This document shows positions 19,269-40,806 of a stretch of 64,000 bases of DNA, piece by piece. The stretch lies in the NCBI GenBank assembly GCA_000004985.1, contig GG738872.1; one strand, written 5' to 3'. The translations under genes and the position numbers were made by a program. Below the pieces are notes generated by a model. The model was not told the origin of the DNA, ran no database searches, and saw nothing but the letters and a program-made list of their open reading frames with translations. The stretch's first letter is position 1. Each line of letters starts with the position of its first letter. The stretch comes from Naegleria gruberi (taxonomy: Eukaryota).

Positions 19269-20732
19269 ATGGCATCCACACTTCCCTCGCGTCTTGATCA
19301 TTTGCCGCATGAGATTCTGTTCACCATCTTTCAATATGGCTTGGATCCGTACACATTATTCAAGCAAATTATTACCTTTCGACATGTAAATAAAACTTTT
19401 TACGAAATGACCAATGATCAAGACTTTTACAAGGTGCTTTTTGCTGATTTGAGACCTAAAGATACAACATTTGATTATTTTCCTACACATGCCTTCATCG
19501 ATCGATTATTGTTCCGAACCCATAGGGACACTTTTAAAGATTGGACTTGTGAGGAATCATGCAAACCTGCCTATGAAACTCTTAACGGAGAGTTGATTAG
19601 CTATGAATATGAAGATGATGGCAAGGAAAATTTATTTGAAAAGTTTTCAGAGTGGTTGAATCAGGCCTATTCAAATTGTGACAATGTTCTATTGAAAATG
19701 TTGATTCAACTGTGTTTGGGAAGAGAGATGATTTCTCATTTGGGAATTAGCAAAGTTGGAGTGTTGATTGAATTGTTTTTTGAAAAGTTGTTGCAACCTG
19801 CTATTGAGTTGGTCAATTCATGGAATGAAACACCGAAAGAAATGGAATGGAGAGAGGATTTGGTGTTTAATATGAATTTATTGCAAGTGATTGGAACAGA
19901 GAGTTTATTTGGAGAGGATATTGCAGTCTGTTGGAGTGAACTAGATGGAATTGCTTCGTGTATTCCAAGAAAATACTTGTTATTCATTGCTGAAAAGTTT
20001 AGAGACATTGAATTGTTGATGAATGATTCGACTAGAACATGCATGGTTACTCAAATCATGAAAATATTGAGAGATTGTGGAATTAAAGTTGAAAGAATGA
20101 GATTTAGTGATATTGGCATGCATGTGAATTATCAGAGAACTGATGCAACGGATAGAATGATCCCAAAAATAGCAAAGAGCTTTTACTTGCAACATTTAGC
20201 AGTTTGGATTAATAGTCCATCATTGCTGGAGTGGTGTTTAACTGTTGGTATTACATCAGATACCAATCTTAAACATCTTTCCAATAATCCGTATTTGGAT
20301 ATTTCACTTCAAGCTCATGTGAATACATACATTCACGATGCATGTGGCTTGACAGCTCTTCATTATGCTGTTCATAGTGGAAATGTAGAAATATCAAACT
20401 TGCTGATCAAGAAATATTTGGCAAACCCATTTGTGGAATCAAGAATTTCGCATTGGGGAAACCTTACACCATGCATACTTGCACAACTTGGTGAATCTGA
20501 TTCAACAATACAAATGATTTTCAAATCACTTGAAGAAAAATATGGAGATATCAAAGTAACTTTCGATAGAGACGATGAAATTGCCAAGGATGTTGAACAA
20601 TCAAATGATTCTCACAAACTTTCTCTTGAGAAAATGCGCGCAGATGTTTGGTATGAATGTGGAGATGATTATTCTTCTTCTGTTAGAGAGAGAAGGAAGA
20701 AACAGTTTATAATAATGAATTCAAAATGGTAG
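19269..20732 (+). CDS. F-box / ankyrin-repeat protein (487 aa)
   Basis: N-terminal LPHEILFTIF F-box signature. Ankyrin repeat consensus near the C-terminus (GLTALHYAVHSGNVEISNLLIKK). Confidence 0.6.
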   Translation: MASTLPSRLDHLPHEILFTIFQYGLDPYTLFKQIITFRHVNKTFYEMTNDQDFYKVLFADLRPKDTTFDYFPTHAFIDRLLFRTHRDTFKDWTCEESCKPAYETLNGELISYEYEDDGKENLFEKFSEWLNQAYSNCDNVLLKMLIQLCLGREMISHLGISKVGVLIELFFEKLLQPAIELVNSWNETPKEMEWREDLVFNMNLLQVIGTESLFGEDIAVCWSELDGIASCIPRKYLLFIAEKFRDIELLMNDSTRTCMVTQIMKILRDCGIKVERMRFSDIGMHVNYQRTDATDRMIPKIAKSFYLQHLAVWINSPSLLEWCLTVGITSDTNLKHLSNNPYLDISLQAHVNTYIHDACGLTALHYAVHSGNVEISNLLIKKYLANPFVESRISHWGNLTPCILAQLGESDSTIQMIFKSLEEKYGDIKVTFDRDDEIAKDVEQSNDSHKLSLEKMRADVWYECGDDYSSSVRERRKKQFIIMNSKW

Positions 20733-22340: not shown

Positions 22341-23834
22341 TTACCACTCTAAATCTTCGCTGTCATCAATTTCCTCTTCTTCACTTTCTTCTTCATCATC
22401 ATTTTCCTCTTCTGATGACGAAGGTTCACTGCTCTTTGAGATAGTGATTTGTTCCTTAAACTTGGACTTTACTTTCTGAATGGATTTTCTAGAGCACGAA
22501 CTATTGACCAGTATAAGCTCCATAATCTTGTTGATACCATTTTCCAGAATATACTCAATGCCCTGTTCGCTCACGTTATTGGAGCCAAGATTTAGAAATT
22601 TCAAAGTACTTCTCAGGTTAACACTTTCGAGAATGGAGATGAGACCCTCATCTGAAATACTATTACCGTACAGACTTAAATGTTCCAATTTAGTGAGGGT
22701 TTTTGAATTTGAAATATAGCAACATCCAACAGTAGATATTCCAGACATGTCCAAGCTCAGATTTGTTAAATTTGCAAGATTACAGTTGGCAATTTCCAAA
22801 CATCCCTCGTCTCCAATAGTTGAAGATATTTTCAGAGTGTGAAGATTGGGATGAATTGCACCTTGAAAGTATTGAGAGCATATTTCCTCTGAAAATGATT
22901 TAACCCAACCCAAATTCAAATATGAAAGAGTTTTGATTTTTTGAATCATTATCAAGCTTTCGCCAGAGATAGCTTGATTTTTAAGTTTTAGTTTCTCTAG
23001 CTGATGAAATTTGGCAAAATCTAATATACAGTCATCAATTCTGTTATAACTAAGATCCAAAGATTTCAAATTGAACATTACATTTCTCTTAATGGGTTGA
23101 AAATGTCTTATCAAGTTTTGGGAGAGATTGAGTGTTTCTATTGATATACCCTTTGTTATCAAAAAATCGAATAAATATTTCATTGCACCTTCACTAATTA
23201 AATTAATCGACAGATCCAGTTCCACCAATGAAATTTCAGAAGGAATGTTATAACACAACAACTGACACAATGAGTTATCCAAATTACACGAAGAAAGTAC
23301 AAGTTTTTTCATGTTGGAAAATATTGTTGCATTTCTAATCCAGGGAAGTAATTTGAAATCTTTGGTGGATTGTTTTGTAATTACCAATGATTGAATATTA
23401 ATTTTAGTAGAATTGTACATGCTTGGATTTTTGTACGATTCGAAACTATATTCCATATCATTGTGTAAATTGTCCTCCTGCTTTTGTTTAGTCCCAAATT
23501 CAAGGAATTTATATTGCCAATTTTCCTCAATGGTAACATGAAGAGTTGTCCTGCAAGACTCCTCATAAAATTGTTTTGAAACCCGAATCATATTTTCCAT
23601 AATTACTTCCCAATCAAGAAATGATAATATAATTCCAATCATTTCATCGGGAAGAGAAAATGTTTCTTCATGATCAGAATCTTTAGTCTTTTTCTTCTTG
23701 TTTGGTGAAAATTTTACATCAACTAGAGATAATTCGGAATCCCTGATCATCATTCTAGAATCACAAAGATGATTTAAATCGTCCACCTCCTCCAGTAGTG
23801 ATCGTTTCATTTTTTTTAAAATTTTAAATTCCAA
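22341..23834 (-). CDS. F-box / leucine-rich-repeat protein with acidic C-terminal tail (497 aa)
   Basis: LPDEMIGIILSFL F-box signature. Multiple LRRs (LDLSYNRIDD, LSLYGNSISDEGL, LNLGSNNVSEQGI). C-terminal ENDDEEESEEEEIDDSED. Confidence 0.65.
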   Translation of the reverse strand: MEFKILKKMKRSLLEEVDDLNHLCDSRMMIRDSELSLVDVKFSPNKKKKTKDSDHEETFSLPDEMIGIILSFLDWEVIMENMIRVSKQFYEESCRTTLHVTIEENWQYKFLEFGTKQKQEDNLHNDMEYSFESYKNPSMYNSTKINIQSLVITKQSTKDFKLLPWIRNATIFSNMKKLVLSSCNLDNSLCQLLCYNIPSEISLVELDLSINLISEGAMKYLFDFLITKGISIETLNLSQNLIRHFQPIKRNVMFNLKSLDLSYNRIDDCILDFAKFHQLEKLKLKNQAISGESLIMIQKIKTLSYLNLGWVKSFSEEICSQYFQGAIHPNLHTLKISSTIGDEGCLEIANCNLANLTNLSLDMSGISTVGCCYISNSKTLTKLEHLSLYGNSISDEGLISILESVNLRSTLKFLNLGSNNVSEQGIEYILENGINKIMELILVNSSCSRKSIQKVKSKFKEQITISKSSEPSSSEEENDDEEESEEEEIDDSEDLEW

Positions 23835-23963: not shown

Positions 23964-24968
23964 TTAATCGTCTGCTGAATATTCAAAGAAGATACATTTT
24001 CCACTATTGGTAATAAACACCACAGCCAATGAGCCAATAACGCCAACATAACACTCCTTATATTCAGCAACAATTGGACATTCTTTCTTAATGAAAGCAA
24101 GCAATTCTTCTAATTTGGAGATTTCTTCGAGGCACTCCTCTCCTCCAATCACTTTTTTCAAAAAGTCAAACAAGTTGTTGTCAAATTCCTGCTTGACATC
24201 CTCAAATGTTCTGTCCAAATAAATTTGTGGATAGAATGAATCTCTTTCACAATTTGTAAAATACTCAAATTTGTCCTTAATATTACTCTCCAAGGAAATA
24301 CTCTGGTATTGGTAATAGTAATTGTTTTGAGGAATTGAACTGGCCACAACGCCAATGATTTTCTTCATCAAATCTGAAAATAATTCTCCAATTTTCTCAT
24401 CATGTTTGATCATTCTTTTCAAAAAGTGAATTCCAAACACACTGGCATTGAAATTAAAATCGAATGTTCTTGCACATCCACCACTGCCATAATTGAGACC
24501 ATTCATTCCATGATATGTAACAGTTTTGTAACCGTTAGAAAATTCTTGTGGAATGATATTTTGAGCAAAAAATCTTCTCATGTCAATCTTCTCGGTCAAT
24601 TGATAGAGAAGGGAGTGCTTTTCAGCAAGTACTTTCCACAATCTCAAGTTTGTACTTGGAGTTGCTTCAATTTGCCAATTTAACATCTGGTACCATTCTT
24701 TGCAAACCAAGGAACAGTTTACCAAAGTTTCGAATTGCCATGGCTCGTTTAAACCATCAAACAGATTTATAAAAATTTCAATCCACAATTCTGGGAGGAT
24801 TAGTTTCATTTTTTTAACTTTATCTTTGCTAACTTTTTTAGCACGAATCATTGCTATGTTAAATACTTTTGTCCAAGTCCCAATTAGAACTTTTACAATG
24901 GTTTCTGTAGCTCCCAATAAACTTTCTAAGAATAAAATGTAACCTTGTATTAAACTGGGCAATGTCAA
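23964..24968 (-). CDS. F-box-like protein (334 aa)
   Basis: ILPELWIEIFINLF F-box-like signature followed by CSLVCKEWYQML. No other domain recognised. Confidence 0.5.
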   Translation of the reverse strand: MTLPSLIQGYILFLESLLGATETIVKVLIGTWTKVFNIAMIRAKKVSKDKVKKMKLILPELWIEIFINLFDGLNEPWQFETLVNCSLVCKEWYQMLNWQIEATPSTNLRLWKVLAEKHSLLYQLTEKIDMRRFFAQNIIPQEFSNGYKTVTYHGMNGLNYGSGGCARTFDFNFNASVFGIHFLKRMIKHDEKIGELFSDLMKKIIGVVASSIPQNNYYYQYQSISLESNIKDKFEYFTNCERDSFYPQIYLDRTFEDVKQEFDNNLFDFLKKVIGGEECLEEISKLEELLAFIKKECPIVAEYKECYVGVIGSLAVVFITNSGKCIFFEYSADD

Positions 24969-25085
24969 ACCTAATTAAGTGTCTTAAACTTGTATACCCA
25001 GGTCAGCACTCTTTTACAATTGAAATTCATCGCTCAACTCCACTTGTTTAGATTTGGAGATGGATCATGGACCACCTCTTCTGAA

Positions 25086-25258
25086 TTGAACAAGAAATAT
25101 TCTGCAGAGAAGTGAGCTTGAATTGATATGAGTTGGTTTTGGATTTAATATTTTAAATCCAAAACTATTTAAAGAAGCACCTTAAACATCAAGAAATACG
25201 ATAGAAGTTAGTTTTCAATAATTTTGCTATTATTCATCAAGCAACCCCTCTCAATCTC
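25086..25258. repeat. right arm of the diverged inverted repeat (partner 18262-18412)
   Basis: See left arm. The orientation is inverted. No tRNA copy accompanies this arm. Confidence 0.6.
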
Positions 25259-25840
25259 AATACCAAGTGAAGAGGTACATCTTTTTGAATAGTATAATCA
25301 TTGATTGTTCTACCGTCTTCCTTAGTGAAATTTATTTATGAACTCTATCTACAATTTTCTAAACTACTTGAAATAGAACGTCTTACAAGAGCTGTTCTAA
25401 TGTTTCAGGAATGAGAACAAAAAGTGCCTTTCGTAAGATTGAAACTTGTACCCATTAGAAACAAAAGGAGTACAATTTCCAATACAGTGTTTGCTGTAGT
25501 TCTTTACAGTCCATATAAAGATCAAAAAGGAATAGATAGGAAAATTGAAAGAATCATTTAGTCCTACTTTCAACATTGGAAATTTATTCATTCCAATGGA
25601 TTCCACGCCATGGTGCTCAATCCAACCATTGAAGTTCTTTCATTCTGTTCTTGTTCAATTCTCCGCACTGAATAACAAAGACCAAATGTACAATGTCCAA
25701 AATCTGTGGCTACTCTTTTTTTGGAAAATCATTAATCTTCAATCATACCAAAAAAATCAATATACTAATCAAACTATTCTTTTCAAATCTTTAAAACTGG
25801 AACATTGTTTCACTTCTCAAACACAATCAAAAAACAAAAA

Positions 25841-26245
25841 ATGAAAAGATTCGTTTCAATCTTATTGATTGCATTGACTTTGGCAATTCTTGCACTTTCC
25901 TTCACTTCAGGAGTTTCTGCTGAAGAATCAGCTGCCTCAACACTTTCCTTGTATATTAGAAAGAATAATAACAAGAAGAGAAATCTCAAGAGATTCAGAC
26001 TCAAGAAGAGAAAGAACAATAGAAAGCTCAACAAGTACATTGACACCTATGGAAGAAAGAGAAGAGGATGGAAGAGATATGGAAAGAAGAGAATTATCAG
26101 AAAGAAGATTGATGTTTATGGAAAGAAGAGAAGATTTAACAAGAAGAGAAGAATCGACACCTACAGAAAGAAGAATAGAAAGAATAGAAAGAACAGAAGA
26201 GGTGGAAAGAAGAATAAGAAAGTTGACCTTTACAAGCGTAAATAA
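25841..26245 (+). CDS. secreted, extremely basic repeat protein (signal peptide plus about 107-aa mature region with about 55% Lys/Arg)
   Basis: MKRFVSILLIALTLAILALSFTSGVSA signal peptide. The mature part consists of reiterated (I/V)D(T/V/L)Y(G/R/K)(K/R)KRR-type units: IDTYGRKRR, IDVYGKKRR, IDTYRKKNR, VDLYKRK. Opposite-strand and other-frame ORFs here are low-complexity artefacts. Confidence 0.5.
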   Translation: MKRFVSILLIALTLAILALSFTSGVSAEESAASTLSLYIRKNNNKKRNLKRFRLKKRKNNRKLNKYIDTYGRKRRGWKRYGKKRIIRKKIDVYGKKRRFNKKRRIDTYRKKNRKNRKNRRGGKKNKKVDLYKRK

Positions 26246-26452
26246 TTGAAAGATTGAATCAATTATTCCTTAAAGCACAAATTTTGAATCAATTTTGCTC
26301 TTAAATATAAAATATAACTTGTGAGTCTCTCGACCGAATTCAATCTTTTTTTCCTTCATCATTTCATGAGCTCATTCAAATCTTGTGGCAACTTGGAAAA
26401 CTGTTTTTCACTTCTTTTTAAAAAAAGCACTTCAAATAAAACTTCGAAAAAA

Positions 26453-27929
26453 ATGTCTGATCATCAAACACCTAGCGTTTCACCAGCAACAACAACATCG
26501 GGGGAAATTGTTCATGAGCAACAACCAGCTGCTACTGTTGCTGCTGTAGAAAATACAACAACAATTCAAGAACCAACTTCAAGTGAAGTAAATTTAGTGT
26601 CAACATCGGAAACAAGTAATAGTGGGAATGATGATAAAAAGAGAAAGAATCCACCTTCCGAATCATCAAATGACAAGAAGAAGAGAAAGGAAAATTATAA
26701 GAAGGGAGGTAAAGGAACAGCTTCTGCCAAGAGAGATAATGATTGGGGTCCAAGAGAACCTAAAGAAAAAAAGGAAGGAGAAGAAAAATTCCAAAAAAGA
26801 AGAGTTGCAATTTTCATTGGGTATTTGGGAACAAATTATAATGGTTCACAAACTTCGTATGTGTTTAAAATTATTATATCTAATATTGAAATTATTTAGA
26901 AATTTTACCAATCCTAATGTCAAGACTGTAGAAGAAACTGTGTTTAAAGCTCTTTGTCAAGCAGGAGGTGTTTCTGGTGACAATAGTACTGACATGAATA
27001 AGGTTCATTTTCACAGAAGTTCAAGAACTGACAAGGGTGTTCATGCTGCCTCAAATGTTTTGGAAATGAAACTTTTAATGAAACCAGGATTGGAAGAAGA
27101 AATGAGAAAACTTTTACCTGAGGATATTGTTTTTTATGGATACAAAAAGGTATCTAAATCATTCAATGCTAAGGAACATTGTACAGCTCGTACCTATGAA
27201 TATTTATTACCTGCTTTTGCATTATCACCAGATCCAAAAGCAGCAACATGGTTTGGACAAATTAATATTGACAAGATTACCAAGGAGGATGTGGAAAGTG
27301 AAAATTTGAATGATATTTACAATTATGATCCAACAGATGAACAAATTGAAAAGGCTAATCGTGTTTTGAAAAACTTTGTTGGAACCAATAGTTTCCATAA
27401 TTATACTCAACTCACAAAAGCCAAGCCAAACTCTTTCAATAGACACATTACCAAGTTTGAATGTTCTAAAGCTTTTGAAATTGATGGAATGAAAGTTGTC
27501 AAGCTCACTGTCACTGGTTCTTCATTCATTTATAACCAAATCAGAAAAATGGTTGGTTTCATGATTGCTGTCATGCGTGGTTCCCTCAATGAAAGTGATT
27601 TCAGTACCTCTGTTGATAAGGAAGTTACTGCCAACGTTCCACTTGCTCCAGCCAATGGATTATTATTATGTGAACAAGAATTCAAGAGATATAATGCTAA
27701 ACAAGGAGCCAAAGTTAATGGTCACGTCACTCCTTCCGATTATTACAAGGAGATGGAAGAATTCAAGAAGAGAATCTATTCCCACATGTTGAAACTTGAA
27801 AAGGAAGAAGGTATCATTGCTAAATTCCTTTTACATTCTAGGGGGTGGAGATTATCGAAGGGATCTAAAGGAGAACCAATTAACAATGTCGAGGAACCAG
27901 TATTAGAATCAATCGAAGAAGATGAATAA
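26453..27929 (+). CDS. PUS1: tRNA pseudouridine synthase, TruA/PUS1 family; 2 exons (26453-26856, 26900-27929)
   Basis: RRVAIFIGYLGTNYNGSQ and the catalytic-Asp motif RTDKGVHA. Further matches to PUS1: ARTYEYLLP and HNYT...MVGFMIAVMRG. Intron GTATGT at 26857 to AG at 26898-26899 restores the frame (…GSQTS|NFTNPNVKTVEE…). Confidence 0.85.
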
Positions 27930-39843: not shown

Positions 39844-40806
39844 ATGCACTCTATTCAAGCTTTAAAGTTGAACAAACTTAATCTCGATCCTGCAATTTCT
39901 ACATCCAACGATGAATCAGATTCGAATAAGAAGAAATATATCAAGTTCTCTGATAGATTTGGAACCACAGAACCTTTCTACAAATACATGGTCACAAAAT
40001 TCGAGTTGGTACACAACCACCTCTTAAACATTTGTCCAGTCATTCTCATGGTTTTGGTACATAATGACCTTCTGTCACCATTCTGGGCAGTATTAATTCA
40101 ACAATACTTAACAATTATATGGACACTTTCTCTGCATTCCCTTCTCCATGCCAAGACATGTGTCGATTCCAATCAAAACTATGATTTGCTTACTGACATT
40201 CTTATTGGAATTCCATATTTTGGTTTATTCACTCCTTCCATTGCTAAATTTGGTCATGACACACATCACAATTACACTGGAACTGAAAAGGATTTGGATC
40301 ACTTCTTCTTCAAGACTGAAAATCCAATTCTCCTCTTTATTTATTCCTCATTCTTTTCTGAATATTACATTTTCTGCTATTTATGGGAGAAATCTTCAGA
40401 AAAGATGCAAATTTTAAGAAGTGTTTCAATCATGCTCGTTAAATTGGTGATTTTATTGACAATGTACAAGATTTTGGGTAATTCCTTCTTGATTATCTTT
40501 TTGAGTTCAAGATTTGCAAAGAGTTACATTTTTGCTTCCTTTACTCAACTTGTCCACAAGATTGATTTGGAAACAATTTTATTCGATTTGGAAGAAAGAT
40601 TGAATTTGCCAATCACTATTGATACTATTTTGCATTACACTTTCGGATACAATATTCATGTAGTCAAGTATCACGATGATCATCATGCTTACAGAATGAT
40701 TTGTCCATCTGCTTACTATCCAGCTCTTCATAATTATTATAAGAAACATCAAGTGAAGGAAAATAATAATAGAATTGACAGTCCTGGAAGAAATAAAGCA
40801 ATATAA
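39844..40806 (+). CDS. fatty acid hydroxylase/desaturase superfamily membrane protein (three His boxes)
   Basis: HSLLH (HxxxH), HDTHH (HxxHH) and HVVKYHDDHH (HxxHH) spaced as in sterol-desaturase/hydroxylase-type di-iron membrane enzymes. Several hydrophobic segments. Confidence 0.55.
   Translation: MHSIQALKLNKLNLDPAISTSNDESDSNKKKYIKFSDRFGTTEPFYKYMVTKFELVHNHLLNICPVILMVLVHNDLLSPFWAVLIQQYLTIIWTLSLHSLLHAKTCVDSNQNYDLLTDILIGIPYFGLFTPSIAKFGHDTHHNYTGTEKDLDHFFFKTENPILLFIYSSFFSEYYIFCYLWEKSSEKMQILRSVSIMLVKLVILLTMYKILGNSFLIIFLSSRFAKSYIFASFTQLVHKIDLETILFDLEERLNLPITIDTILHYTFGYNIHVVKYHDDHHAYRMICPSAYYPALHNYYKKHQVKENNNRIDSPGRNKAI

What the first reader, a model, noticed from the sequence alone, without database searches (positions are those of the whole stretch)
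25841..26245. Signal-peptide protein made almost entirely of Lys/Arg repeat units
After a clear cleavable signal peptide the about 107-aa mature product is about 55% K/R and built from reiterated units of the form (I/V)D(T/V/L)Y-x-(K/R)KRR. Every unit is bounded by dibasic sites, so the precursor could be processed into multiple short cationic peptides. It would be unusual for a secreted protein to carry this much charge unless it binds polyanions (nucleic acid, polyphosphate, cell-wall/matrix polysaccharide) or acts as an antimicrobial or cell-penetrating peptide precursor. I recognise no named family.
Basis: seen in the sequence. Interest (0 to 1): 0.6.

Follow-up and report, generated by a model that had tools for sequence, protein, structure and literature searches.

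The report
Unannotated secreted polycationic protein of Naegleria
This is a real but unannotated gene of the soil amoeba Naegleria gruberi; it encodes a small exported protein with a net charge of about +45 and belongs to a little family found only in Naegleria-like organisms, whose function (most likely sticking to negatively charged microbes or polymers) is still untested.

Summary
The ORF at 25841-26245 (+) exists as described. The window is Naegleria gruberi NEG-M, and this exact protein is absent from public protein sets, so the locus is unannotated. The reading frame is right. Against a paralogue, dN/dS is 0.14, and 12 of 16 differences in the basic domain fall at third codon positions. 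Only this frame stays open in all four loci with DNA. Lys codons are 27 AAG to 3 AAA, against 46% AAG in neighbouring ORFs. The product has a classical signal peptide (−3 Val invariant; −1 only Ala/Cys/Gly), a short acidic linker and a 96-aa basic domain. K+R is 48% of the mature protein, not 55%. N. gruberi holds at least six dispersed paralogues, and three metagenome relatives exist. No Pfam, PDB or other homologue was found. Full-length members keep a net charge of +43 to +45 at 47% identity, and every Asp sits in a ΦDΦY motif. The protein fails the KEP repeat-coverage criterion, shows no amphipathic helix and has no RiPP-type neighbours. My best reading is an exported, disordered polycation that binds polyanionic targets, of host-defence or prey-handling type. 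That function is inferred, not shown. The finding is moderately interesting.

The parts
25614..25840 (+). Upstream region duplicated together with the gene. It probably holds the promoter and a short A-rich 5' leader, with a TATA-like TTTAAAA at 25790-25796.
   Evidence: blastn of the paralogous metagenome contig L002 aligns window 25614-26248 at 82% identity. Conserved blocks are visible in the pairwise alignment. The A-rich leader before the ATG is shared by all four loci. The promoter function is inferred.
25841..26245 (+). Complete intron-less CDS of 134 codons plus TAA. The gene is not annotated in N. gruberi NEG-M.
   Evidence: ORF and translation. The exact product is absent from the 15-billion-protein collection. 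dN/dS is 0.14 against the L002 paralogue. This is the only frame open in all four loci. Lys codons are AAG 27 to AAA 3, p = 7.5e-7 against neighbouring ORFs.
25841..25921 (+). Signal peptide, residues 1-27 (MKRFVSILLIALTLAILALSFTSGVSA), with predicted cleavage after Ala27.
   Evidence: Hydropathy profile. Residues S6-L14 are invariant. -3 Val is invariant, and -1 is A, C or G in every member. Synonymous differences inside the h-region against L001 show selection at the protein level. No dedicated predictor was run.
25922..25954 (+). Short acidic/neutral linker or pro-piece, residues 28-38 (EESAASTLSLY). It holds the only Glu residues of the mature protein.
   Evidence: E29 and S33-T34-L35-S36 are invariant across the five members of alignment A2.
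25955..26242 (+). Polybasic, predicted-disordered domain, residues 39-134. It is 53% K+R, with no Cys, no Ser and no N-glycosylation sequon.
   Evidence: Composition. AlphaFold2 gave pLDDT 62 and pTM 0.23 with no compact fold. No amphipathic periodicity above shuffles. 12 of 16 nucleotide differences against L002 are at codon position 3.
26039..26050 (+). ΦDΦY motif 1 (IDTY, residues 67-70, followed by GRKRR).
   Evidence: Conserved in all N. gruberi paralogues and lost in P0005/P0020.
26108..26119 (+). ΦDΦY motif 2 (IDVY, residues 90-93, followed by GKKRR).
   Evidence: Absent from P0005/P0020.
26153..26164 (+). ΦDΦY motif 3 (IDTY, residues 105-108, in KKRRIDTYRKK). This is the most conserved element of the mature protein.
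   Evidence: R103, R104, D106, T107, Y108, K110 and K111 are invariant in all members, including the 47%-identical P0005.
26222..26233 (+). ΦDΦY motif 4 (VDLY, residues 128-131, in KKVDLYKRK-stop) at the C-terminus.
   Evidence: The same C-terminal layout (KKΦDΦYK[KR]K-stop) is seen in the window, P0001-P0004 and L001/L003.
26280..26325 (+). Family-specific 3'-UTR element: AATTTTG-N4-AATTTTG (26280-26297), then CTTGTGAG (26318-26325).
   Evidence: Conserved downstream of the stop codon in the window, L001, L002 and L003. The double heptamer occurs once in the 64-kb window, against 0.11 expected. The octamer alone is not enriched. Function unknown.

Best explanation
Shown: the locus is a genuine, intron-less protein-coding gene of Naegleria gruberi that the NEG-M annotation missed. 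It is one of at least six dispersed paralogues of a family so far seen only in Naegleria-like organisms.

Shown from sequence and family patterns, but not by experiment: the product is a pre-protein. It has a conserved N-terminal signal peptide (residues 1-27), an 11-residue acidic/neutral linker, and a 96-residue disordered domain with net charge about +45. Four short ΦDΦY motifs punctuate that domain.

Inferred: the hydrophobic N-terminus, with its positive N-flank and acidic C-flank, drives the basic domain into the ER lumen. The protein is then exported to the medium or the cell surface, or routed to food vacuoles.

Inferred mechanism: the protein works as a polycation. Its dense Lys/Arg tracts bind polyanionic targets electrostatically. 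The most plausible targets are the envelopes or nucleic acids of bacterial prey or competing microbes, so it would act in host defence or prey handling like protamine or a cationic killer peptide. The ΦDΦY motifs would serve as short hydrophobic/aromatic contact points or as limited trimming sites.

I do not think it is mainly a precursor that is diced at every dibasic site.
For: Gene reality and reading frame:
- dN/dS is 0.14, with differences at codon positions 1/2/3 of 9/5/24, against the paralogous contig L002.
- Within the basic domain, 12 of 16 differences are at position 3.
- Only frame +1 is open in all four loci. The +2 frame has 4-7 stops in the relatives.
- Lys codons are 27 AAG to 3 AAA, against 46% AAG in 14 neighbouring ORFs (p = 7.5e-7). 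The longest A run is only 4. This fits selection for translatability of a Lys-rich message.

Organism and annotation status:
- Seven neighbouring ORFs match N. gruberi NEG-M proteins exactly.
- The target protein is absent from the collection.

Family:
- P0001-P0004 and P0018 lie on five other scaffolds.
- Environmental relatives are P0005, P0019 and P0020.
- The flanks of L002 differ from the window beyond 25614 and 26248, so these are paralogues, not alleles.

Secretory targeting:
- The h-region SILLIALTL is invariant, -3 Val is invariant, -1 is A/C/G only, and Glu residues follow the predicted site in all members.

Charge as the selected trait:
- Full-length members have net +43 to +45 and 106-113 mature residues despite 47% identity, while motif number varies from 2 to 5.

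Disorder:
- AlphaFold2 gave pTM 0.23.

Pattern typical of defence peptide families (my own knowledge of amphibian AMP and conotoxin families):
- A conserved prepro region with a diverging mature part, a lineage-restricted distribution and multiple gene copies.

Literature context:
- Naegleria already makes antibacterial effectors from processed precursors, the naegleriapores (PMC6723116).
- Strongly cationic peptides kill microbes, including N. gruberi itself (preprint 10.64898/2026.08.23.746575).
Against: - There is no functional, localisation or expression evidence of any kind. No transcript data could be consulted.
- No signal-peptide predictor was run. The 18-residue h-region is long enough for an uncleaved signal anchor.
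- The hydrophobic moment is not above shuffles, and only about 20% of residues are hydrophobic. It is therefore not a classical amphipathic membrane-active AMP.
- A net charge of +45 with no acidic pro-domain is unlike known AMP precursors, which usually neutralise the cationic part.
- The strict conservation of ΦDΦY motifs 3 and 4, and of the rule that every Asp sits in a motif, is not explained by a purely electrostatic role.
- Absence from other Naegleria species rests on protein databases only. This very locus shows that such genes escape annotation.
Confidence: 0.4

Rival explanations
1. Multi-copy propeptide. After signal-peptide removal, the protein is cut at its basic runs and trimmed by a carboxypeptidase. 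This releases several copies of a tiny ΦDΦY peptide (IDTY, IDVY, VDLY), some Gly-extended and possibly amidated. These peptides would act as a signal or pheromone, or as a modified RiPP-like product. The basic tracts would be mere spacers.
For: - Four motif copies are each flanked by basic runs. Tyr-Gly-(K/R)(K/R) follows two of the four motifs, and a fifth site, RYGKKR, has the same form. This is the classical Gly-dibasic amidation/cleavage layout (layout from my own knowledge, e.g. the TRH precursor).
- Motifs 3 and 4 are the most conserved part of the mature protein.
- Motif copy number varies between members, as it does in pheromone and KEP precursors (PMC6339444).
- Ustiloxin/phomopsin precursors also repeat a short Tyr/Ile core between KR sites.
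Against: - Motifs cover only 11.9% of the protein, below the 15% KEP threshold. P0005 and P0020 have only two motifs.
- About half of all residues being K/R is far more than cleavage sites require.
- The spacers are as conserved as the motifs among N. gruberi paralogues, and total charge is conserved.
- Gly is replaced by Arg at motif 3 in four paralogues and is absent at motif 4.
- A review states that excavates lack PAM (PMC6529398).
- A 35-genome survey placed the P-proprotein domain in Excavata (there Trichomonas), Heterokonta and Opisthokonta, not in Discicristata, the group that includes N. gruberi (PMC2770060).
- No tyrosinase, DUF3328 or protease genes lie within ±15 kb, and the paralogues have unrelated neighbours.
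Confidence: 0.15
2. Structural or packaging polycation. The protein would be a secreted counter-ion or 'glue' that condenses or cross-links polyanionic material. Candidates are cyst-wall or plug polysaccharide, mucilage, polyphosphate, or negatively charged substrata. Tyr residues would serve as stickers or cross-link sites, by analogy with coacervate-forming basic cement and adhesive proteins.
For: - Net charge and length are conserved while sequence is not.
- The domain is disordered and K/R/G/N/Y-rich, with regularly recurring Tyr.
- A protein of +45 probably needs a polyanionic partner during trafficking (inference).
Against: - Tyr is only 6.5% of the mature protein, far below mussel or sandcastle-worm adhesives (my own knowledge).
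- There is no Ser for phosphorylation and no Cys.
- A lineage-restricted, multi-copy and fast-diverging family is not what one expects for a core cyst-wall component, since all Naegleria encyst. The taxonomic absence itself is only weakly established.
Confidence: 0.2
3. Not a soluble secreted protein. Either the hydrophobic N-terminus is an uncleaved signal anchor that tethers the polybasic domain to a membrane, or targeting is inefficient and the NLS-like basic domain takes the protein to the nucleus or nucleolus.
For: - The h-region is 18 residues long and unusually conserved for a signal peptide.
- KKRR-type tracts resemble nuclear or nucleolar localisation signals (my own knowledge).
- Cationic peptides accumulate in the N. 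gruberi nucleolus.
Against: - The c-region obeys the -3/-1 rule in every member, with only small residues at -1, as expected if cleavage is under selection.
- The charge difference across the hydrophobic segment (N-flank +2, C-flank -2) predicts translocation of the C-terminal part (inference from the positive-inside and charge-difference rules).
Confidence: 0.1
4. The ORF is a chance open frame in purine-rich low-complexity DNA, or a pseudogene copy, and makes no functional product.
For: - The locus is not annotated in the reference genome.
- A/G-rich DNA keeps several frames open by itself: the +2 frame is open for 122 codons in the window.
- No transcript evidence was obtained.
Against: - dN/dS is 0.14 and differences are mainly at third positions.
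- Start, stop and frame are conserved in six or more paralogues and in metagenome relatives at dS of about 0.9.
- Lys codon usage is strongly biased to AAG.
- The upstream region and a 3'-UTR motif are conserved.
Confidence: 0.03

Closest known systems
Cationic host-defence / cell-penetrating 'killer' polypeptides (protamine, PR-39, Hydra arminin-type precursors)
   Same: - Signal peptide, then a short acidic piece, then a strongly cationic product.
- Action expected through electrostatic binding to polyanionic envelopes or nucleic acids.
- Lineage-restricted multigene family with a conserved prepro region.
- PR-39-type polycations are active on N. gruberi itself.
   Different: - Net charge of +45 over about 100 residues is several-fold higher than typical AMPs.
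- No amphipathic helix, no Pro/Arg or Cys scaffold, and no neutralising pro-domain.
- No sequence homology to any such family.
- Activity is untested.
KEX2-processed repeat proteins (KEPs) of fungi and animal multi-copy neuropeptide precursors (e.g. the TRH precursor)
   Same: - Signal peptide.
- A short motif repeated four times and flanked by KR/RR/KK.
- Gly-dibasic after some copies.
- Variable copy number among relatives.
   Different: - Repeat coverage is 11.9% against the 15% minimum, and distant members have two copies where at least three are required.
- Basic residues make up half of the protein rather than two per unit.
- Neither a kexin-type convertase nor PAM has been reported in Naegleria's lineage in the literature consulted.
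Diatom silaffins (Sil1p-type precursors)
   Same: - Signal peptide followed by highly basic repeated units separated by RR-type sites.
- The products act as polycations on an anionic or mineral phase (my own knowledge).
   Different: - Silaffin units are Lys/Ser-rich and heavily phosphorylated or polyamine-modified. The basic domain here has no Ser at all.
- Naegleria does not silicify.
- No homology.
Ustiloxin/phomopsin (dikaritin) RiPP precursors
   Same: - Secreted precursor that repeats a tetrapeptide-scale Tyr/Ile-containing core between dibasic sites (PMC6339444).
   Different: - Those genes sit in clusters with UstYa/DUF3328 oxidases and a tyrosinase. Nothing of the kind lies within ±15 kb here.
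- The paralogues are dispersed with unrelated neighbours.
- That system is fungal-specific.

Membership tests
KEX2-processed repeat proteins (criteria of PMC6339444) | N-terminal signal peptide and no other transmembrane segment | tested here: inconclusive
   Classical n/h/c layout, the -3/-1 rule kept in all members, and no second hydrophobic segment. SignalP/TMHMM, as used in the published pipeline, could not be run.
KEX2-processed repeat proteins (criteria of PMC6339444) | In-silico cleavage at KR/RR gives at least 4 fragments of at least 2 aa, and at least 3 of them share a motif | tested here: met
   The window protein gives 10 fragments of at least 2 aa and 4 ΦDΦY-bearing fragments. Not met by family members P0005 and P0020, which have 2 motifs.
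KEX2-processed repeat proteins (criteria of PMC6339444) | Repeated motifs occupy at least 15% of the protein length | tested here: not met
   4 x 4 aa over 134 aa is 11.9%. Values across the family are 5.7-15.2%. Threshold quoted.
KEX2-processed repeat proteins (criteria of PMC6339444) | A Kex2/furin-type (P-domain) convertase present in the organism | not testable with these tools
   The N. gruberi genome could not be searched. PMC2770060 inferred the P-proprotein domain in Excavata (Trichomonas), Heterokonta and Opisthokonta, not in Discicristata, which includes N. gruberi.
Amidated peptide-hormone precursors | Peptide-Gly-(K/R)(K/R) processing/amidation sites after each product | tested here: inconclusive
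   Present after motifs 1 and 2 and at RYGKKR. Absent after motifs 3 (YRKK) and 4 (YKRK-stop) in the window. Gly is present at motif 3 in P0002, P0005 and P0018.
Amidated peptide-hormone precursors | Peptidylglycine alpha-amidating monooxygenase (PHM+PAL) in the organism | not testable with these tools
   Review PMC6529398 states that excavates (example given: Trypanosoma) completely lack PAM. Naegleria is not named.
Amphipathic alpha-helical cationic antimicrobial peptides | Net positive charge plus a significant helical hydrophobic moment (segregated hydrophobic face) | tested here: not met
   Charge is +45, but the mean and maximum hydrophobic moment at 100 degrees is not above 500 shuffles in 4 of 5 members, including the window protein.
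Ustiloxin-type (dikaritin) RiPP precursors | Precursor gene clustered with UstYa/DUF3328 oxidase and tyrosinase genes | tested here: not met
   A Pfam scan of 10 ORFs within about ±15 kb found F-box-like, LRR, PseudoU_synth_1, LisH, TPR, RhoGEF/RCC1/FYVE and Vps35 only.
Silaffin-type biomineralisation polycations | Lys/Ser-rich repeat units | tested here: not met
   There is no Ser in residues 39-134. The three Ser of the mature protein all lie in the linker. That silaffin units are Lys/Ser-rich and separated by RRIL/RRNL is recalled from my own knowledge.
Any curated protein family or solved structure | Significant profile match | tested here: not met
   Pfam gave only sub-threshold noise. 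A profile search of the PDB gave 0 hits at E <= 1. The 1.84-billion-representative profile search returned only family members.

The most novel reading that the evidence does not exclude
The family could be a pro-hormone-like precursor of a heterolobosean amoeba. Cutting at its basic tracts would release several copies of a ΦDΦY tetrapeptide, some Gly-extended and amidated or otherwise modified at Tyr. The peptides would serve as an intercellular signal, for example for density, encystment, mating or differentiation. That would put multi-copy peptidergic signalling, using non-canonical processing enzymes, in a lineage where neither kexin-type convertases nor PAM have been reported.
Probability: 0.07. 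Interest if true: 0.8.

Novelty: new variant of a known kind. Interest (0 to 1): 0.4.

Why it matters
If the favoured reading holds, Naegleria would have an unrecognised class of exported, extremely cationic (+45), disordered effector proteins alongside its saposin-like naegleriapores. That would be relevant to how bacterivorous amoebae kill or handle prey and compete. It would also show that cationic 'killer' polypeptides are made outside animals.

There are two practical points. First, small low-complexity secretory genes are missed or mis-modelled in the N. gruberi annotation. This locus is unannotated, one paralogue is fused to a NOT2-like gene, and another has a wrong N-terminus. Second, such proteins are nearly invisible to tryptic proteomics, so their absence from secretome lists means little.

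Tried and rejected
Searches that returned nothing or could not be used:
- Exact-sequence look-ups of the target, P0001, P0003 and P0018 in the contig index found nothing on record. DNA of the annotated N. gruberi paralogues was therefore not available. Metagenome contigs L001-L003 were used instead.
- tblastn of the family against the window found no second copy.
- The JGI metagenome scan matched 600 pattern hits, none confirmed.
- A profile search through the word-indexed database added nothing new.
- A search with the 41-aa prepro region alone, meant to find other cargoes behind the same signal peptide, returned no candidates, apparently a limitation of the word index.
- Rfam had no match on 25000-27000.
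- Literature searches for the locus tags or accessions and for Naegleria with lysine-rich, amidating or kexin terms found nothing on this family. One search was too broad to be useful.

Tests that gave negative results:
- AlphaFold2 gave a low-confidence all-helix model (pTM 0.23), so no fold search was attempted.
- The amphipathic-helix and β-periodicity test was negative.

Readings rejected:
- The alternative reading frames.
- Allelic rather than paralogous origin of the relatives, because the flanks differ.
- A RiPP cluster context.
- Formal KEP membership.
Full report
**1. What is there**

The window has about 33% G+C throughout. Seven of ten long ORFs tested match proteins of Naegleria gruberi strain NEG-M exactly (EFC43616, EFC43617, EFC43621, EFC43630, EFC43636 and others), all on one 413,107-bp scaffold. 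So the sequence is N. gruberi nuclear DNA.

The product is:

MKRFVSILLIALTLAILALSFTSGVSA / EESAASTLSLY / IRKNNNKKRNLKRFRLKKRKNNRKLNKYIDTYGRKRRGWKRYGKKRIIRKKIDVYGKKRRFNKKRRIDTYRKKNRKNRKNRRGGKKNKKVDLYKRK

This exact protein is absent from a collection of about 15 billion proteins that contains the NEG-M gene set. The best database hit is only 86% identical. The locus is therefore not annotated.

**2. Checking the numbers**

- K+R is 47.7% of the mature protein and 53% from Ile39 onward, rather than about 55%. Net charge is +45.
- The mature part has no Cys and no N-glycosylation sequon, and residues 39-134 have no Ser.
- There are four [ILVF]D[TVLF]Y motifs (IDTY, IDVY, IDTY, VDLY), and they contain all four Asp residues. 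None of 100,000 shuffles of the mature sequence gave four such motifs.
- The motifs cover only about 12% of the protein, and DNA-level repeats are weak. The protein is better described as a polybasic low-complexity domain punctuated by four short motifs than as an array of units.

**3. Is it a real gene in this frame?**

Purine-rich DNA keeps several frames open. The +2 frame is open for 122 codons in the window, so this question needed a test. Three metagenome contigs carry relatives with DNA:
- L002 encodes a near-identical copy of paralogue P0001.
- L001 and L003 encode a member 47% identical to the window protein.

The evidence for the stated frame is as follows.
- Window against L002 gives dS 0.35, dN 0.05 and dN/dS 0.14, with differences at codon positions 1/2/3 of 9/5/24.
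- Inside the basic domain alone, 12 of 16 differences are at position 3, with 5 amino-acid changes in 94 codons.
- Only frame +1 is open end-to-end in all four loci. Frame +2 carries 4-7 stops in the relatives.
- Start codon, frame and the C-terminal ...ΦDΦYK(K/R)K-stop are retained even at dS of about 0.9.
- Lys codons are 27 AAG to 3 AAA, against 46% AAG pooled over 14 neighbouring ORFs (binomial p = 7.5e-7). The longest A run in a 30-Lys message is 4. This is what selection for efficient translation of a Lys-rich mRNA would produce.

Transcript evidence could not be obtained.

**4. The family**

N. gruberi has at least six copies on six scaffolds:
- this locus;
- EFC40780 (P0001), EFC41070 (P0002) and EFC43980 (P0003);
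- EFC43417 (P0004), whose N-terminus is aberrant and lacks the signal peptide;
- EFC42503 (P0018), in which a family member is fused to a NOT2_3_5_C protein, evidently a merged gene model.

Environmental relatives are P0005, P0019 and P0020 from ENA metagenomes.

Searches beyond these found nothing:
- A HMMER profile search of 1.84 billion representatives returned only these proteins.
- A JGI metagenome scan returned nothing.
- Pfam and the PDB gave no match.

The window holds a single copy. Similarity between the window and L002 extends from 25614 to 26248 at 82% identity and then stops. The duplicated unit is therefore the gene plus about 230 bp upstream, and the copies are dispersed paralogues with unrelated neighbours.

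**5. Anatomy and what is conserved**

(a) Signal peptide. S6-L14 (SILLIALTL) is invariant at the protein level despite synonymous differences. Val at -3 is invariant. The -1 residue is Ala, Cys or Gly and nothing else. Glu residues follow the site in every member. The N-flank carries +2 and the 15 residues after the hydrophobic core carry -2. By the charge-difference rule this orients the C-terminal part into the lumen (inference). No dedicated predictor could be run.

(b) Linker. EE...ASTLS(L/T)Y is conserved.

(c) Basic domain. Among full-length members, net charge is +43 to +45 and mature length is 106-113 residues, although identity falls to 47% and the number of ΦDΦY motifs varies from 2 to 5. 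In every member, each Asp of the mature part lies in a ΦDΦY motif. Motif 3 (KKRRIDTY.KK) and the C-terminal motif 4 are the best-conserved elements.

(d) Structure. AlphaFold2 gave pLDDT 62 and pTM 0.23 with generic helices and no compact fold. The helical or β hydrophobic moment is not above shuffles in four of five members.

**6. Mechanism**

Shown, or directly readable from the sequence: a conserved translated ORF, a signal-peptide-like N-terminus under selection, and extreme conserved positive charge.

Inferred: export into the secretory or endolysosomal pathway, and action as a polycation. I favour electrostatic binding to polyanionic targets of a bacterivorous amoeba, namely bacterial envelopes or nucleic acids in food vacuoles or outside the cell. 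The reasons are:
- charge and length are conserved rather than sequence;
- the family is lineage-restricted, multi-copy and diverging, with a conserved prepro region, which is typical of defence peptide families (my own knowledge);
- Naegleria already deploys processed antibacterial effectors (PMC6723116);
- highly cationic peptides are potent killers, even of N. gruberi itself (preprint 10.64898/2026.08.23.746575).

The confidence in this functional reading is modest (about 0.4). The conserved ΦDΦY motifs are not explained by charge alone, and there is no acidic pro-domain to neutralise the cation.

**7. Rivals**

- In its favour are the Tyr-Gly-dibasic sites and the motif conservation.
- Against it: repeat coverage is 11.9%, below the 15% KEP threshold (PMC6339444), and distant members have only two motifs.
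- Spacers and total charge are conserved, and Gly is replaced by Arg or absent at two of the four motifs.
- Cutting at all dibasic sites leaves uncharged stubs rather than cationic peptides.
- The literature consulted does not report PAM (PMC6529398) or a P-domain convertase (PMC2770060) in Naegleria's lineage.
- There is no RiPP-type gene neighbourhood.

A structural, adhesive or polyanion-packaging role remains possible (0.2). So does a membrane-tethered or nuclear fate (0.1). A non-functional ORF is essentially excluded (0.03).

**8. Comparison and novelty**

The protein works most like protamine-type or cationic killer polypeptides. In layout it resembles KEPs, neuropeptide precursors and silaffins. 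It fails a defining feature of each family that could be tested (see the membership table) and has no detectable homologue outside Naegleria-like sequences.

Five paralogues have sat in GenBank since the genome release as 'predicted protein'. The family itself is therefore not newly discovered, only uncharacterised, and this copy is unannotated.

I rate it a new variant of a known kind (an exported cationic effector-like protein) and moderately interesting at 0.4. It is real and unusual in degree, but there is no evidence yet of a new mechanism.

Noticed in passing
window 25841-26245: The gene is missing from the N. gruberi NEG-M annotation. The exact product is not in the protein collection, although neighbouring genes match exactly. 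Small low-complexity secretory ORFs seem to be under-called in this genome.
   Followed up: yes
P0018 = EFC42503 / NAEGRDRAFT_50395 (N. gruberi, another scaffold): This 565-aa 'predicted protein' consists of a family member (residues 1-~132) fused to a Q/N-rich region and a NOT2_3_5_C domain (residues 436-557, E = 4e-35). It is almost certainly two genes merged by the gene model, which also removes the member's usual C-terminal ΦDΦYKRK.
   Followed up: partly
P0004 = EFC43417 (N. gruberi, another scaffold): The N-terminal 36 residues (MVMGFRHTQTQTQTHTQ...) are unrelated to the family and lack the signal peptide. From residue 37 on the protein is a normal member. The start or first exon is probably mis-modelled.
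   Followed up: no
L001 110-601 and L003 127-621: The metagenome gene calls P0005 and P0020 read through an in-frame TAG. With the standard code the ORF ends at ...VD(F/L)YKKK-stop, exactly as in the N. gruberi family. The 24-residue tails are artefacts of the gene caller's genetic code.
   Followed up: yes
window 26280-26297 and 26318-26325: A 3'-UTR element, AATTTTG-N2-4-AATTTTG followed 20-30 nt later by YTTGYGAG, is conserved in the window, L001, L002 and L003 despite dS of about 0.9 in the CDS. The double heptamer occurs only here in the 64 kb (0.11 expected). It may be a family-specific mRNA 3'-end or regulatory signal.
   Followed up: partly
window 25614-25760: Blocks 100-230 nt upstream of the ATG are nearly identical between the window and the paralogous contig L002, while the sequence between them diverges. 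Examples are TCAATCCAA.C.TTGAAGTTCTTT.ATTCTGTTCTT, AAAGACCAAATG.ACAATGTC.AAAATC and ACTCTTTTTTTGG. They are candidate shared promoter elements.
   Followed up: no
window 26454-27929: The downstream gene is a PseudoU_synth_1 (PUS1-like) protein starting about 210 nt after the target's stop. Its two overlapping ORFs in different frames are joined by a 43-nt GTATGT...TAG intron at 26857-26899.
   Followed up: partly
window 19269-20732 and 23964-24968: Two F-box-like genes, one with ankyrin repeats, and an LRR gene (22341-23834) lie just upstream. Intergenic spacers in the region are only a few hundred bases.
   Followed up: no
window 39844-40806: The 320-aa product (EFC43630) falls in a single 90%-identity cluster with EFC41286 from a different 358-kb scaffold. 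This points to a recent segmental duplication or to separately assembled haplotypes in NEG-M.
   Followed up: no
L001 vs L003, CDS 3' part: The two environmental variants differ almost only by non-synonymous changes (14 against 1 synonymous). The changes cluster in ...NRKNGKNFHKLNRKSGKK... versus ...NKKNGKKHQHKNRKGGKK... This could reflect local indel or frameshift compensation, or relaxed or diversifying selection in the basic tail. The differences are too few to decide.
   Followed up: no
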